Assembly: GCA_016212695.1 (NCBI GenBank)
Contig: JACREX010000147.1
Coordinates: 1-58,858, forward strand
Direction of reading: 5' to 3'
From: Bacteroidia bacterium
GTDB lineage: Bacteria > Bacteroidota > Bacteroidia > Bacteroidales > GWF2-35-48
Length of the DNA: 58,858 nt
The position numbers and the translations under genes are program-made. The notes beneath the pieces are model-generated. The model was given only the letters and a program-made list of their open reading frames with translations, was not told the DNA's origin and did no database searches. This document shows positions 1 to 58,858 of this stretch, piece by piece. Position 1 is the first letter of the stretch. Each line of letters starts with the position of its first letter.

Positions 1-577
1 AAGGAACTGTTTGCGGTGGTTCGAGTTTTATGGTCTTTGTGCCGGATTTAGTCTGGATTACAACAGGTGTTACTCCAGTTTTGGGAATTGTAAAGATTCG
101 GGGCTTTGGGCAGGTGTCTGTGATTATGGTTTTTGGGAGTTGGTTCTTGGGACTTGGTTCTTGGTTCTTGGCGCTTGGTTCTTGGCTCTTGGTTCTTGGT
201 TCACTTCGACTGCGCTCAGTGCATGCTTGGGACTTGGTGCTTGGTTCTTGGTTAGGATTATTGGTGCATTGAATGAAGAGGAAAGATAAAAGGAAAAAGG
301 AGAAAGATAAAAAGAAAAACAATATCGAGTGTCGAAGTGAAAAGCGCCGATGGGATATATGAGTTGCCCCGTCCTGAATTGCCCTGCCCTTTAGGGCGGG
401 GTACCAAAGCGCAGCCTCTCTGTATCGGCGCTGCACGCTGGAATGCAACCATGAAACACCCCTGCTCAATGCAGCGCAAAGGGAAAAGGGTAAAATGAAT
501 AACGAATATCGAATATCGAATAACGAATGCGATGCATTGAGCCTGTCGAAATGTAGAAGTATTTTATAGTTGTTCAT
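1..577 (-). CDS. Partial gene (5' part; runs off the left edge), probable lipoprotein/secreted protein, possibly a periplasmic sensor; N-terminus invaded by repeats
   Basis: Manual translation: ATG at 577, in-frame stop just upstream (590-592), no stop down to the edge. MNNYKILLH...LFFFLSFSFFLLSFLFIQC-TNNPNQEPSTK...PKTIITDTCPKPRIFTIPKTGVTPVVIQTKSGTKTIKLEPPQTVP. Absent from the ORF track because its stop is outside the window. Confidence 0.7.
   Translation of the reverse strand, partial: MNNYKILLHFDRLNASHSLFDIRYSLFILPFSLCAALSRGVSWLHSSVQRRYREAALWYPALKGRAIQDGATHISHRRFSLRHSILFFFLSFSFFLLSFLFIQCTNNPNQEPSTKSQACTERSRSEPRTKSQEPSAKNQEPSPKNQLPKTIITDTCPKPRIFTIPKTGVTPVVIQTKSGTKTIKLEPPQTVP
140..252. repeat. 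Degenerate heptamer tandem array (TTGGTTC)n with an embedded REP-like insert
   Basis: Repeated ttggttc/ttggctc/ttggcgc/ttgggac units, interrupted by cttcgactgcgctcagtgcatg at about 204-225. Confidence 0.85.
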
Positions 578-685: not shown

Positions 686-805
686 GAGTCCACTCTGAAA
701 AGTCCGATATTTGGGAATGATGGAAAAATGGAATATCGGGAAAGCCCATAATTCCAACATTCCATTATTCCAATTCATAAAAAAATTACTTTTCGGAGCA
801 GGCTC
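686..805. mobile_element. MITE-like element with 18-bp imperfect TIRs and a 6-bp flanking direct repeat
   Basis: GAGTCCACTCTGAAAAGT ... ACTTTTCGGAGCAGGCTC (14/18 complementary), ATACAT on both sides (680-685, 806-811), internal inverted octamer arrays TGGAA.../...TTCCA. Confidence 0.8.
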
Positions 806-5501: not shown

Positions 5502-8500
5502 TTATTTTTTCAACAATAATTTTTCTAATGCTTCTATTCTTTTTTGCAGGTCGTCAATTATTTTTTGTTGTTCATCGCTTTTTTTCTTTTGCTTTTGTGC
5601 TTCTTTTAATAACAAAACCGATAAAAGTGGGTATTGAACGGCATCAGGAATAAGCTTTTCTGAAGCGCTTCCTTTGATTACATCTTTTTCTATTGCAAAT
5701 ACAGCAAGTTCAGGAATTGCTTCGGCTACTTCTTCGGCAATGAGGCCAAAAAAACGCTGTGTCTTGCTGTCGCTTTCATTAATACTATTATAGGATACAG
5801 GCCTTAGTTTATAAATATTTTCCGTATTAATCTCCAAATCTGTAATGTTACTTTTATATCTTTTTGAAGATGTACTTCGGAGTATCTGGCCTGTTGAAAG
5901 AACAACCATGTTGGCGGCACTGGCAGAAGTAGCCGCATAAGCTCCCTGACAAAAAAATGTAGTAACAAAAGCGTCTCCTATACTCACCTGATTGCTTGCG
6001 GTTATCGCAGCATTATAACCTAAAGCAGTGGAATTGGAATAATTTATTCCATCAAAGAAAGCATAAAACCCTAAAGCGGTATTATTGCTACCATACATGT
6101 TATTAAAAAGCGCTGCTACTCCATCTGCGGTATTGTTGTTTCCATTGATATTTGATAAAAGTGCAGCATATCCGTTGGCGGTATTGTAGTTTCCTATGGT
6201 GTTAGATTGAAGCGCATTCATTCCGTTGGCGATATTGGAGTTTCCTGTGGTGTTGGAATAAAGCGCCTGAAATCCGCTGGCGGTATTTTGGTATCCTATG
6301 GTGTTGGAAAAACCTGTCTGAAAACCAACAAATACGTTGTAGTCACCATTATTGGTATATCCTGCCTGATAACCATTAGCTACATTATAGACTCCTTCTG
6401 TGTTATAATAAAACGCCTGATAACCAATAGCTACATTATTTATTCCTCCTATGTTATTATAAAGTGCATGATAACCATTAGCTACATTATTTGTTCCTCC
6501 AGTATTAGAGTATAAGGCATAATAACCATTTGCGGAGTTGCCCATTCCTGATGTATTGGAATAACCTGCATGATCGCCAATGAACACATTGTAGTCTCCA
6601 TTATTGATATATCCTGCATAATAACCAAGAAATACATTTTGTTTACCGGTTGTATTAGAATAGCCACAGTTATCGCCAAGAAATATATTGCCTCTACCAC
6701 TTGTATTGAAATAACCGCAGTTATCTCCAATAAATATATTGCTGTAACCACTGGTGTTGGAATATCCGGCTTTGTATCCGATAAAATAATTATTATATCC
6801 TGAGGTATCGGAATAGCCAGCCTGATACCCGATAAATGAATTGTATTTCCCTGTATAATTCAGAGAACCAGAAAGGCTGTAACCGGCATCATTCCCGATA
6901 AAATTATTTGCAGGATTGATATAAAAAAAATTGTTTGTTGTAGATTTGGTGGAACTTTTACCGCTAACAGCAAAGCAACCCTTGTTTTGAGATTTTGCTC
7001 CGCCGGGGTCTTTCACCCAGAAATGCACGCTGTCTTTGTAAACAACCATAGCGGTTTGTCCATTCTGGTCTTTAATTTCAAAAATAGGAGAAGTGGCAGG
7101 AAGAGATGCATCAGCGACAATCTGTACCTTTCCCGAAGGAGTGGTGGTGCCGATACCGAGATTAACGCCATTTTGGTATATGACAGAATTATCCAAACCG
7201 GTTGCAGAAACAAATTTCGGAATATAATTAGCCGTTCCGTCAGAAGAACCTATTGCAGGAGTTTGCCATGAACCAAACCCATTGGCATCGGAAGTCAATA
7301 CTTTTCCGGCAGCTAATGTTCCGCCATCATCCATCCGGATGTTTCCTATTACATCTAAAGCCGCCTGCGGATTTGCAGTACCGATGCCAAGCATGTTCGA
7401 GGAATTGTTCCAGGAAAAGAGATTGCTGGAAGTAACCGATGATGTCCCGTTCCAGAATGTAATTTTGTTTGATGCACCGGAACCTGTAACCATGCCTGTA
7501 TGCGAGTGGTCGCTCCTTGCTGAAGTATTGGCAGAACCATTTCCATCAAAAGAAACAGCCCAGTCTGAAACAGCGGCAGAAGCGTTGTAAGCAGCGCCTG
7601 TCAATCCTGTTCCCGGAGAAAGTAATGCATGGCTGTGCGCAGGTAAATCAGCGGCAACCAATAATCTGAACGAAGGTGTTCCGGCAGTTCCATCCGGCGC
7701 TGCAAAAAATGTATTGGCAGCCTGTGATGCAAATGTTGCAGTCAATGTGCCTGATGAAATAACAGGCGAGTTGGCAATCGTAAAAACAGAAGGCATAGAT
7801 AAACCAACACTTGTTACAGTCCCTGAATTCGGCGTACTCCATGTCGGAATTGCAGAAATTCCCGCTGAGGTTAGCATTTGCCCGGATGTTCCAAGCGATA
7901 AGTCATTTATCTGCCCGCTTCCGTTTGAATAAAATAGGTTCCAGTTATTTGCCGAATGATCGCTCACAGATGTCATGGTATGCGATTGGTTATGCAATTG
8001 TGTATGTGTGTGGTTCCCTTCAGCTATCGTACTGGCTGAAGTCCCAAACTCAGCGCTGAAAACATCGCCTGTAAGAGATAATCCTGTTCCTGCGGAATAC
8101 GTAGTATTATTATCTGTTGAATTAATGGTAAAATTCGGATACGTTCCCGTTACCATTGTTGCGCCTGTGCCGTTTAAAGTAATCGCCTGATCGGGATTTG
8201 TGTTGGTAATGGTAAAATCAGGATACGTACCTGTTACAGATATTCCATTACCATTGGTTAAAGTTACAAGCTGGTTTGGCAAAGTGTTTTTAATCGTGTC
8301 GTTCGAAATACTTATCCCGATTCCCGCTTTGTAATTACCCGGCGAATACAGCGCATATGGAACAGAAAGCAACTGGTTTGTGCCCATTACCGAGTAATTA
8401 TTCCCTGCGTTAATATCTAATTCAACTTTGATGTAATAGGTATTGTTTCCCCAGTCTATCGTAGAAAAATTACCGGACGGATTTGTGCCATTACCAACTT

Positions 8501-8732
8501 CTAAGTTCACCAAACCAAAGGGATTGGTAGTTGCAGAATGTTCCTCTGAATATACAGATAAGCCTGTAGAACTTCCCTGCAGAATGTTTATCCTGAAACT
8601 CACATTCTGGTTTGGAATTATTGTACCACTGCTGTTACGCACTACGGCCTGGTAGCTGAAGGCATTAGGCGATTGTGCAAATATTGTAGCACTAATCAGC
8701 ATACTGATAAGAAAAACTAAAAACTTTTTCAT
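5502..8732 (-). CDS. Secreted trimeric fibre/adhesin with C-terminal S74 intramolecular chaperone (paralog 3, last in operon)
   Basis: Start refined to MKKFLVFL (8732) with a signal peptide; YQAVVRN...LLSVPYALY N-domain; HxH motifs; ~14-aa N.A.GY.AL..N..G repeats; SSKRYKSNI and a terminal coiled coil. Confidence 0.8.
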   Translation of the reverse strand: MKKFLVFLISMLISATIFAQSPNAFSYQAVVRNSSGTIIPNQNVSFRINILQGSSTGLSVYSEEHSATTNPFGLVNLEVGNGTNPSGNFSTIDWGNNTYYIKVELDINAGNNYSVMGTNQLLSVPYALYSPGNYKAGIGISISNDTIKNTLPNQLVTLTNGNGISVTGTYPDFTITNTNPDQAITLNGTGATMVTGTYPNFTINSTDNNTTYSAGTGLSLTGDVFSAEFGTSASTIAEGNHTHTQLHNQSHTMTSVSDHSANNWNLFYSNGSGQINDLSLGTSGQMLTSAGISAIPTWSTPNSGTVTSVGLSMPSVFTIANSPVISSGTLTATFASQAANTFFAAPDGTAGTPSFRLLVAADLPAHSHALLSPGTGLTGAAYNASAAVSDWAVSFDGNGSANTSARSDHSHTGMVTGSGASNKITFWNGTSSVTSSNLFSWNNSSNMLGIGTANPQAALDVIGNIRMDDGGTLAAGKVLTSDANGFGSWQTPAIGSSDGTANYIPKFVSATGLDNSVIYQNGVNLGIGTTTPSGKVQIVADASLPATSPIFEIKDQNGQTAMVVYKDSVHFWVKDPGGAKSQNKGCFAVSGKSSTKSTTNNFFYINPANNFIGNDAGYSLSGSLNYTGKYNSFIGYQAGYSDTSGYNNYFIGYKAGYSNTSGYSNIFIGDNCGYFNTSGRGNIFLGDNCGYSNTTGKQNVFLGYYAGYINNGDYNVFIGDHAGYSNTSGMGNSANGYYALYSNTGGTNNVANGYHALYNNIGGINNVAIGYQAFYYNTEGVYNVANGYQAGYTNNGDYNVFVGFQTGFSNTIGYQNTASGFQALYSNTTGNSNIANGMNALQSNTIGNYNTANGYAALLSNINGNNNTADGVAALFNNMYGSNNTALGFYAFFDGINYSNSTALGYNAAITASNQVSIGDAFVTTFFCQGAYAATSASAANMVVLSTGQILRSTSSKRYKSNITDLEINTENIYKLRPVSYNSINESDSKTQRFFGLIAEEVAEAIPELAVFAIEKDVIKGSASEKLIPDAVQYPLLSVLLLKEAQKQKKKSDEQQKIIDDLQKRIEALEKLLLKK

Positions 8733-8843
8733 AATTCTAAATTTATTTGTTAATTTATTTATTTGATGATGTTCCGATGGATAATTTAATATTGGCAATC
8801 TCTGCTTTTAAATTGTCGATTTCCTGAATTTTGGATTTTAATA
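8714..8843. repeat. 130-bp direct repeat, copy 1 (gene end, spacer, gene start)
   Basis: 129/130 identical to 11553-11682; offset 2839 bp. Confidence 0.93.
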
Positions 8844-22175: not shown

Positions 22176-22348
22176 GATACTCCCGACAAGTCGAGGCAGG
22201 AATTTATACATTTTGTAATCGGTGTTCGGTTATCGGTTATCGGTAGTTTCTCTTGACTACTGATTACCGCTTACTGATTACTGATTACTGATTACCGGCA
22301 CCTGATTACCCTTTGTAATATGTATTATTTTATACCAATCTGAGTATA
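22176..22348. mobile_element. TATACT-ended MITE-like element, copy B (cargo GGTTATC/CTGATTA heptamers; REP inserted in the left end)
   Basis: gATACTc[ccgacaagtcga]ggcaggaatttatacattttg ... atgtattattttataccaatctgAGTATA. Confidence 0.62.
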
Positions 22349-28089: not shown

Positions 28090-28243
28090 GGGCGTGTAAA
28101 AAATTAAAGTTTACTTTTACATTAATTATGAATATCGAACCGTAGAATTTTGAAGTAATATCACACTTCGGCATTCATTATTCAGTGTTCATTATTCGAT
28201 ATTTTTAAGTTTAAAATGACAATGTTATTTCTAAACAAATACT
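28090..28243. mobile_element. MITE-like element with inverted GAATATC/TTATTC heptamer arrays, copy 1
   Basis: GGGCGTGTAAAAAATTAAAGTTTAC...TTAATTATGAATATCGAA...TTATTCGATATT...TTTAAAATGACAAT; homologous to 58719-58858. Confidence 0.7.
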
Positions 28244-58718: not shown

Positions 58719-58858
58719 GGGCTTGTAAAATATTAAAGTTTACAATTGCTTTAATTATGAATATCGAATGTCGAACCGCAGAATGCCGAACTTTTACGCA
58801 CTTCAGAATTCGTTATTCGACGTTCGTTATTCGATATTATTAACTTTAAAATGACAAT
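58719..58858. mobile_element. MITE-like element with inverted heptamer arrays, copy 2 (cut by the window edge)
   Basis: GGGCTTGTAAAATATTAAAGTTTAC...TTAATTATGAATATCGAA...TTATTCGATATT...TTTAAAATGACAAT; homologous to 28090-28223. Confidence 0.7.

What the first reader, a model, noticed from the sequence alone, without database searches (positions are those of the whole stretch)
1..577. Hidden edge ORF whose N-terminus and signal peptide are built from stacked in-frame repeat elements
Seen: a minus-strand frame is open for 192 codons from ATG 577 to the window edge, although it crosses about six repeat inserts. These are a CTTCGAC-type REP (HFDRLNA), the TTATTCG/GATATTC heptamer family also found at 28130-28200 and 58760-58840 (HSLFDIRYSLF), a GCCC-TTTA-GGGC hairpin (YPALKGRA), a pyrimidine-rich heptamer tract encoding the hydrophobic LFFFLSFSFFLLSFLF before IQC, a (GAACCAA)n tract (NQEPSTK-type linker) and a second REP (CTERSRS). 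The last ~45 codons look like ordinary protein. Established: palindromic repeats inside coding sequences are known, e.g. Rickettsia palindromic elements. Inference: here several unrelated repeat families accumulated in frame and one supplies the signal-peptide h-region, i.e. repeat DNA recruited as an export signal.
Basis: partly seen in the sequence, partly recalled or inferred. Interest (0 to 1): 0.72.

Follow-up and report, generated by a model that had tools for sequence, protein, structure and literature searches.

The report
Repeat-built leader on a membrane sensor
The open frame at the window edge is the start of an ordinary Bacteroidota membrane-sensor gene cut by the assembly, and its first ~147 codons are spelled largely by the genome's own dispersed DNA repeats, which likely overwrote and lengthened an export signal that the protein family already had.

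Summary
The last 49 residues match the N-terminal signature of Reg_prop/Y_Y_Y membrane sensors. Synteny with a same-genus genome places the gene's PP2C (SpoIIE) tail on contig C216, so the gene is real and its middle is unassembled.

ATG577 has a normal start context; the TTG/GTG alternatives score poorly. Two paralogues (C13, C14) keep the frame through different repeat stacks.

The h-region has only modest 7-nt periodicity (P≈0.02), and the 10 homologue N-termini examined already carry a 14–41-residue signal, so the repeats replaced a signal rather than created one. The pattern is genus-wide: 87 of 383 heptamer arrays lie in long ORFs, and a PorP gene has an 88-residue repeat leader with a single possible start. 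Precedent exists (Delihas 2007; intragenic REPs), and this scan noted repeat-coded signals in several other genomes. Translation and cleavage are untested.

The parts
2..577 (-). 5' part (192 codons) of a Reg_prop/Y_Y_Y membrane sensor gene, cut by the contig start
575..597 (-). ATG start with A-rich upstream context; 44th percentile of training starts, matched by 1.6% of internal ATGs
528..553 (-). REP-type half (HFDRLNA); 528-542 is also an inverted arm pairing with 464-478
496..528 (-). TTATTCG/ATATTCG heptamer tract (HSLFDIRYSLF), leading into a first, weaker hydrophobic stretch at residues 24-38
428..477 (-).
382..401 (-). CCCCGCCC-N4-GGGCRGGG hairpin (YPALKGR); 30 copies in the genome
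331..341 (-). third REP-like half (TTCACTTCGAC), inverted partner of 200-210
275..322 (-). pyrimidine-rich tract with modest period-7 structure encoding the main hydrophobic stretch (residues 86-101)
266..274 (-). IQC; Cys104 aligns with the post-hydrophobic Cys of homologues (atypical lipobox, Gln at -1)
226..253 (-). GAACCAA-family heptamer tract 1 (linker)
200..225 (-). REP-type element (ACTERSRSE) in the linker
146..202 (-). GAACCAA-family heptamer tract 2 (linker)
2..148 (-). conserved pre-propeller signature (P-x-I-x-DTCPKP...IQT-x-x-G-x-x-x-I-x-L-x-PP), 41-55% identical to 5 homologues

Best explanation
The frame is the N-terminus of a membrane sensor with a beta-propeller/Y_Y_Y input and, by synteny, likely a PP2C-type (SpoIIE) phosphatase output, and it is likely translated from ATG577 through about 147 codons made mostly of REP hairpins and heptamer tracts. 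Shown: the open frame, the repeat families, the family signature and three paralogous starts. Inferred: repeats that are dispersed across this genome land in, or expand within, regions of low constraint, and they persist where the frame stays open. T-rich heptamer strands read as Phe/Leu/Ser/Ile and so can take over the h-region that the family already had, while A/C-rich strands read as polar linker. The 84-residue front end would stay in the cytoplasm as an overgrown, neutrally drifting n-region. Residues 85-103 would target the protein to Sec, and the protein would then be either lipidated and cleaved at Cys104 or held by this stretch as an uncleaved anchor, with the propeller in the periplasm.
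For: Signature hits in G044 at E 2.8e-10 to 2e-7, in proteins with Reg_prop+Y_Y_Y. In same-genus G002, rseP is followed directly by a DUF218 gene; in G000 the DUF218 orthologue on C216 is preceded by a 5'-open SpoIIE tail at the contig end. Three orphan starts (C64, C13, C14) match three orphan tails (C216, C17, C221). C14 pairs with C221 by independent synteny, and C221 shows Reg_prop+Y_Y_Y+SpoIIE. ATG577 scores at the 44th percentile of training starts; TTG469, TTG448, GTG436 and TTG322 score at or below the 5th. C13 and C14 also start at well-scoring ATGs in frame, C14 through an unrelated 5' end. The paralogous variant in run X1 differs by a net -6 nt. Independent case: the PorP gene on C74 has an 88-residue repeat leader with one ATG at the 93rd percentile and no other ATG/GTG/TTG before the conserved mature Gln. 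Leader drift is neutral-looking: 3 synonymous vs 11 non-synonymous codon changes between C64 and C13.
Against: No expression, proteomic or signal-peptide-predictor evidence. The middle of the gene is not assembled, so the link to C216 rests on synteny. Openness of codons 1-103 alone is only a 1-in-20 event (157 of 3000 shuffles; 555 of 12120 gap windows). About 29% of simulations with 26 random substitutions leave the frame open, so conservation between C64 and C13 (22 differences) is weak support. The 428-477 element is open in the same reading in its 4 other copies too (read by eye). Gln at -1 of the Cys occurred in 0 of 103 heuristic lipoprotein candidates in this genome. Genes with N-terminal heptamer arrays were not significantly enriched for hydrophobic N-termini (11 vs 6, Fisher p=0.22). 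The h-region periodicity is modest.
Confidence: 0.68

Rival explanations
1. Translation starts downstream (TTG322 or a non-canonical codon), so 577-323 is a structured 5' leader and only the h-region and linker repeats are translated.
For: Homologue signals are 14-41 residues. Di Nocera et al. (PMC3733652, passages) caution that many N-terminal REPs may be extragenic through mis-annotated starts. The region folds more stably than shuffles (z -3.87).
Against: TTG322 scores at the 5th percentile and would leave no n-region. The equivalent codon is absent in C13 and C14, whose last ATG/GTG/TTG before the h-region is GTG at codon 48, scoring at the 8th and 15th percentiles. The C74 PorP leader has no alternative start.
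Confidence: 0.12
2. The copy is a recent, decaying duplicate; the frame is open by the stop-poor nature of the repeats and the protein is not exported or not made.
For: C64 and C13 are 89% identical over 423 nt, including upstream DNA; the C216 and C17 tails are 94% identical; no purifying selection on leader residues; two hydrophobic stretches could confuse topology; the gene is absent from this position in G002.
Against: All three paralogues are open from a good ATG, C14 with a separate 5' history and a tail only 64% identical; the C221 half is an intact 858-residue frame despite several repeat inserts.
Confidence: 0.13
3. The heptamer tracts act as slippage-driven on/off switches, as in Neisseria opa leaders (mechanism recalled; raised by earlier scan notes).
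For: A 7-nt unit changes frame on gain or loss. One search lists one joint 141→182 'skips 40, between: not known' in run X1.
Against: The tracts are degenerate, not perfect; the joint may belong to a paralogue with other letters between; no frameshifted copy was seen among the three starts.
Confidence: 0.05

Closest known systems
Yersinia RU-2 repeat fused to YPO1552 (Delihas 2007, PMC2759123; passages read)
   Same: [quoted passage not shown]
   Different: One element of about 30 codons there; here about five families are stacked over ~147 codons, in a multi-domain sensor with three paralogous versions.
Intragenic GTAG/CGTC REPs and Rickettsia RPEs (Di Nocera et al. 2013, PMC3733652; passages read)
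   Same: REP singles, dimers and clusters lie in frame, encoding 20-30 and up to 43-82 residues, often at protein termini or linkers; CGTC repeats are reported from Bacteroidetes.
   Different: The passages read do not describe mixtures with heptamer tracts or supply of an h-region. I did not match the window's REPs to the paper's consensus figures.
Bacterial heptamer simple-sequence repeats (MacGregor 2015, PMC4679880; Rehm et al. 2015, PMC4692102; passages read)
   Same: Period-7 arrays are strongly over-represented and mostly intergenic; mixed heptamer families occur in Bacteroidetes.
   Different: Those papers treat them mainly as non-coding ('signal peptide' has 0 occurrences in both main texts); here 87 of 383 lie in long ORFs, several as h-regions.
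Bacteroides hybrid two-component sensors (Reg_prop + Y_Y_Y; PMC3243724, passages; PDB 4a2l, 3v9f, 3ott)
   Same: Same periplasmic propeller/Y_Y_Y input, shown on the paralogue C221 and on homologues.
   Different: The output is a SpoIIE/PP2C domain, not kinase-receiver-AraC, and the protein carries a pre-propeller signature and a very long leader.

Membership tests
Reg_prop/Y_Y_Y membrane sensors | Reg_prop repeats and Y_Y_Y domain in the same protein | tested here: inconclusive
   Met in homologues carrying the same N-terminal signature and in paralogue C221; this copy's middle is unassembled, so not shown directly.
Reg_prop/Y_Y_Y membrane sensors | Subfamily N-terminal signature before the propeller | tested here: met
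   41-55% identity to 5 homologues over 49 residues; E down to 2.8e-10.
Reg_prop/Y_Y_Y membrane sensors | Cytoplasmic output domain after a membrane helix | tested here: inconclusive
   SpoIIE tail on C216 (E 9e-10) is linked by synteny only.
Bacteroides hybrid two-component systems | Kinase, receiver and AraC DNA-binding domains in one chain | tested here: not met
   The two tails scanned as SpoIIE for the other copies and the synteny-linked tail are all SpoIIE.
Sec/SPII lipoproteins | Hydrophobic h-region directly before a Cys | tested here: met
   Kyte-Doolittle 11-mer up to 2.57 over residues 85-104; a Cys follows the h-region in 6-7 of 10 homologues.
Sec/SPII lipoproteins | Canonical lipobox with a small residue at -1 | tested here: not met
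   FIQC has Gln at -1; 0 of 103 heuristic candidates in this genome do, though homologues L006 and L022 also have QC.
Sec/SPII lipoproteins | Cys within about 15-40 residues of the start | tested here: not met
   Cys is residue 104 from the best-scoring start.
Sec/SPII lipoproteins | Lipidation and cleavage | not testable with these tools
   Needs a predictor or an experiment.
Intragenic REP/RPE-type elements | Dispersed multi-copy palindromes, mostly intergenic, some in frame | tested here: met
   169 copies (44 in long ORFs), 30 copies (4) and 7 copies (2) for the three hairpin families.
Intragenic REP/RPE-type elements | GTAG or CGTC terminal tag and cognate RAYT transposase | not tested
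   No search for tags or RAYT genes was run.
Phase-variable coding repeats (opa type) | Perfect tandem units with copy-number variation that shifts the frame | tested here: inconclusive
   Tracts are degenerate; only contigs, no raw reads, were available.

The most novel reading that the evidence does not exclude
In this Bacteroidales genus, export leaders are a sink for selfish repeats. They grow to 60-104 residues made almost wholly of stacked REP hairpins and heptamer tracts, the repeats rewrite the h-region again and again (different families in sister paralogues), and leaders are swapped by recombination at a shared repeat, yet Sec still accepts them. This would be a natural series showing how signal peptides are rebuilt from non-coding DNA.
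Probability: 0.5. Interest if true: 0.55.

Novelty: new variant of a known kind. Interest (0 to 1): 0.4.

Why it matters
If the frame is translated, it shows how permissive export signals are: unrelated non-coding repeats can replace an h-region and add more than 80 residues in front of it. The three paralogues and the PorP family give ready-made matched pairs for testing this with reporter fusions. It also matters for annotation, since such starts are easily called too late or missed. The principle itself (repeat DNA as signal peptide) was already proposed in print, so the gain is in extent and testability.

Tried and rejected
Pfam on the 192-residue fragment gave only sub-threshold hydrophobicity hits. 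A word-based search with residues 145-192 among longer proteins found nothing. The exhaustive search gave 8 hits, of which 3 are true relatives (P0006, P0008, P0009) and 5 are repetitive proteins that I set aside. An exact 24-mer scan of metagenome contigs found no extension, and no contig of the genome overlaps positions 1-120. No RNA holder was listed. Rfam gave only a chance hit at E 0.99. I first took C221 as this gene's continuation and rejected it when synteny tied C221 to C14. A motif from the loose end at position 69 is not in the assembly. The signature was not found in same-genus G001 or G002 with these queries; it matched 7 of 401 genomes of the order, G000 included. A predicted pairing of the start region with the 428-477 element differs between paralogues and was not pursued. 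My first hairpin and CTTTTAT patterns were too strict and were redone; the pattern was written with the window's tract in view, so its 6 hits are not an unbiased count. Paper searches found no report of heptamer-coded signal peptides in Bacteroidota; the library lacks most subscription journals, and no supplements were read.

Full report
Observation. The window is the whole of contig C64 of a 4.03-Mb, 259-contig genome. The only listed run that holds it is a groundwater metagenome, and its relatives are labelled Bacteroidia. The minus-strand frame from ATG577 is open for 192 codons to the contig start. The TTATTCG units are also at the two other window sites cited. I add a GCGCTGCA-N34-TGCAGCGC element at 428-477 (7 copies) and a third REP half at 331-341. 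Period-7 structure is strong in codons 17-32 and 108-147 (0 of 5000 synonymous recodings reach it) but modest in the hydrophobic tract at codons 86-101 (P=0.022; 0.005 against codon-order shuffles). The frame is more open than chance, but not overwhelmingly so: 23 of 3000 shuffles for codons 1-147 and 157 of 3000 for codons 1-103.

Identity of the gene. The last 49 residues matched three loci in G044, the only one of 60 relatives with a hit, and a profile matched 6 of 400 other genomes of the order. Four of these proteins were scanned against Pfam: all have Reg_prop repeats, three reach Y_Y_Y, and two have PAS and kinase domains. The genome holds two further truncated starts of the same gene at the ends of C13 (89% identical over 423 nt) and C14. 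Contig depths in run X1 fit three copies: about 49 at 81-120 against 15.9 for single-copy DNA. There are three matching orphan tails, on C221, C216 and C17. In same-genus G001 and G002 the RNA-methyltransferase gene is followed by a DUF4159 gene; in G000 these lie on C221 and C14 with the sensor halves between them, so C221 belongs to C14. In G002, rseP (M50+PDZ) is followed by a DUF218 gene; in G000 that gene lies on C216 directly behind a 5'-open SpoIIE tail. The window gene therefore most likely ends on C216. The C216 and C17 tails are 94% identical and C221 is 64% identical to them, matching the relatedness of the starts. C221 shows the architecture Reg_prop, Y_Y_Y, SpoIIE, with solved relatives among Bacteroides sensor domains and a serine phosphatase. 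The link is by synteny; the middle of this copy is not assembled.

Where translation starts. A start-context matrix trained on 843 unambiguous starts against 15,562 internal ATGs puts ATG577 at the 44th percentile of the training starts, reached by 1.6% of internal ATGs. TTG469, TTG448, GTG436 and TTG322 are at the 0-5th percentile, and there is no other ATG before Cys104. C13 and C14 have in-frame ATGs at the 58th and 52nd percentiles. C14's first 33 codons are unrelated in sequence and contain other REP halves, and they join at the 428-477 element. The variant contig in run X1 covering 201-399 differs by 24 substitutions and a net -6 nt; by hand, the nine listed substitutions at 231-283 create no stop and keep IQC. 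Against over-reading this: C64 and C13 differ at only 22 of the first 246 nt, with 11 non-synonymous and 3 synonymous codon changes, and 29% of simulations with 26 random changes stay open. The 428-477 element is also open in the same reading in its four other copies (by eye).

Was a signal created or replaced? The ten homologue N-termini examined (nine in the alignment, plus L022) all carry a hydrophobic signal ending 14-41 residues from the first Met, at a Cys in six or seven and at AQ or GQ in the rest. A Gln after signal cleavage is typical of Bacteroidetes (PMC5837995, passages). The closest homologue, L006, reads KYSLFILLFLFIQCNNN, against LLSFLFIQCTNN here. So the family already had the signal. 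What varies is the DNA that spells the h-region: a TTTTATC-like tract in C64, TTATTCG units in C13 and C14 (20 of 21 period-7 matches), and weaker heptamer traces in two G044 homologues (16 and 15 of 21; the other six 6-12). A similar 53-nt stretch sits on C98 outside any long ORF, and related tracts spell h-regions on C116 and C176. The leader also holds an earlier, weaker hydrophobic stretch (residues 24-38); in C13 the two begin with the same 11 nt, consistent with two arms of one repeat family or with a duplication. FIQC is not a canonical lipobox (0 of 103 heuristic candidates have Gln at -1), so an uncleaved anchor remains possible.

Genome context. Period-7 arrays number 383, against 9-46 for periods 5, 6, 8, 10 and 11; 87 lie inside ORFs of at least 150 residues, which cover 84% of the genome, so arrays are depleted in genes but common in absolute terms (a few of the 87 are protein-level repeats rather than heptamer elements). 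Of 81 arrays in ORFs with an ATG start, 18 begin in the first 45 codons (expected 9%, p=3.5e-4, the window's own included), but those genes were not significantly enriched for hydrophobic N-termini (p=0.22). Several h-regions are plainly heptamer-coded and end in a Gln site (C230, C62, C245, C26, C15). The PorP family is an independent control: of 35 leaders listed, 26 from other genera are 17-40 residues, while 3 of 9 from this genus are 63, 70 and 88 residues, with REP and heptamer content in the two longest. The 88-residue C74 leader has one ATG at the 93rd percentile and no other ATG, GTG or TTG. The paralogous sensor half on C221 carries further in-frame heptamer and hairpin inserts in its mature domains.

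Mechanism. Shown: frame, repeats, family, paralogues, start scores. Inferred: repeats spread through low-constraint DNA and survive in genes when the frame is kept; T-rich strands give hydrophobic residues and can overwrite an h-region, and A/C-rich strands give polar linkers; the long front end is a passive cytoplasmic n-region; residues 85-103 direct export. I put this at 0.68, a downstream start at 0.12, a decaying duplicate at 0.13 and phase variation at 0.05.

Comparison and novelty. [quoted passage not shown] Di Nocera et al. 2013 (PMC3733652, passages) report in-frame REP clusters of up to 82 residues and warn about mis-called starts. Heptamer arrays in Bacteroidetes and other bacteria are described as mainly intergenic (PMC4679880; PMC4692102; passages). 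Six searches found no paper on heptamer-coded signals in Bacteroidota; supplements were not read. Earlier notes of this scan describe repeat-coded signals in at least five other genomes (unchecked). The finding is a real, extreme variant of a known kind: interest 0.4.

Noticed in passing
G000:C74:19106-20350 (−), L044: PorP/SprF gene with an 88-residue leader of stacked REP and heptamer repeats and a single possible start; its paralogue on C62 has a 29-residue heptamer-coded signal and the G002 orthologue L075 a 70-residue one.
   Followed up: yes
G000:C14:2-289 (−), L010: Paralogue whose first 33 codons are unrelated to those of C64/C13 and join at the GCGCTGCA element, suggesting recombination at the repeat; a weak DUF2442 gene lies just upstream.
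   Followed up: partly
G000:C98:~880-990 (−): A 31-codon mini-ORF that reads like a lone signal peptide and shares the window's h-region DNA (85% over 53 nt); possibly a relic or a free repeat copy.
   Followed up: partly
window 141-182 and 69: Run X1 shows a joint skipping 40 nt with unknown letters between, and a contig that diverges at position 69, probably one of the other paralogues.
   Followed up: partly
many G000 contigs (C168, C17, C134, C162, C172, C104, C81, C169): SpoIIE-like tails repeatedly carry heptamer inserts at the same two or three loop positions.
   Followed up: no
window 721-772: A further heptamer-like inverted repeat upstream of the gene, shared with C13 and present at high summed depth in run X1.
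   Followed up: no
window 22219-22295, 28100-28230, 58740-58858: Other heptamer arrays in the window, the last two arranged as inverted pairs.
   Followed up: partly
window 5502-8798 (−): 1098-residue secreted-looking protein whose tail resembles an intramolecular-chaperone domain (label recalled, not scanned).
   Followed up: no
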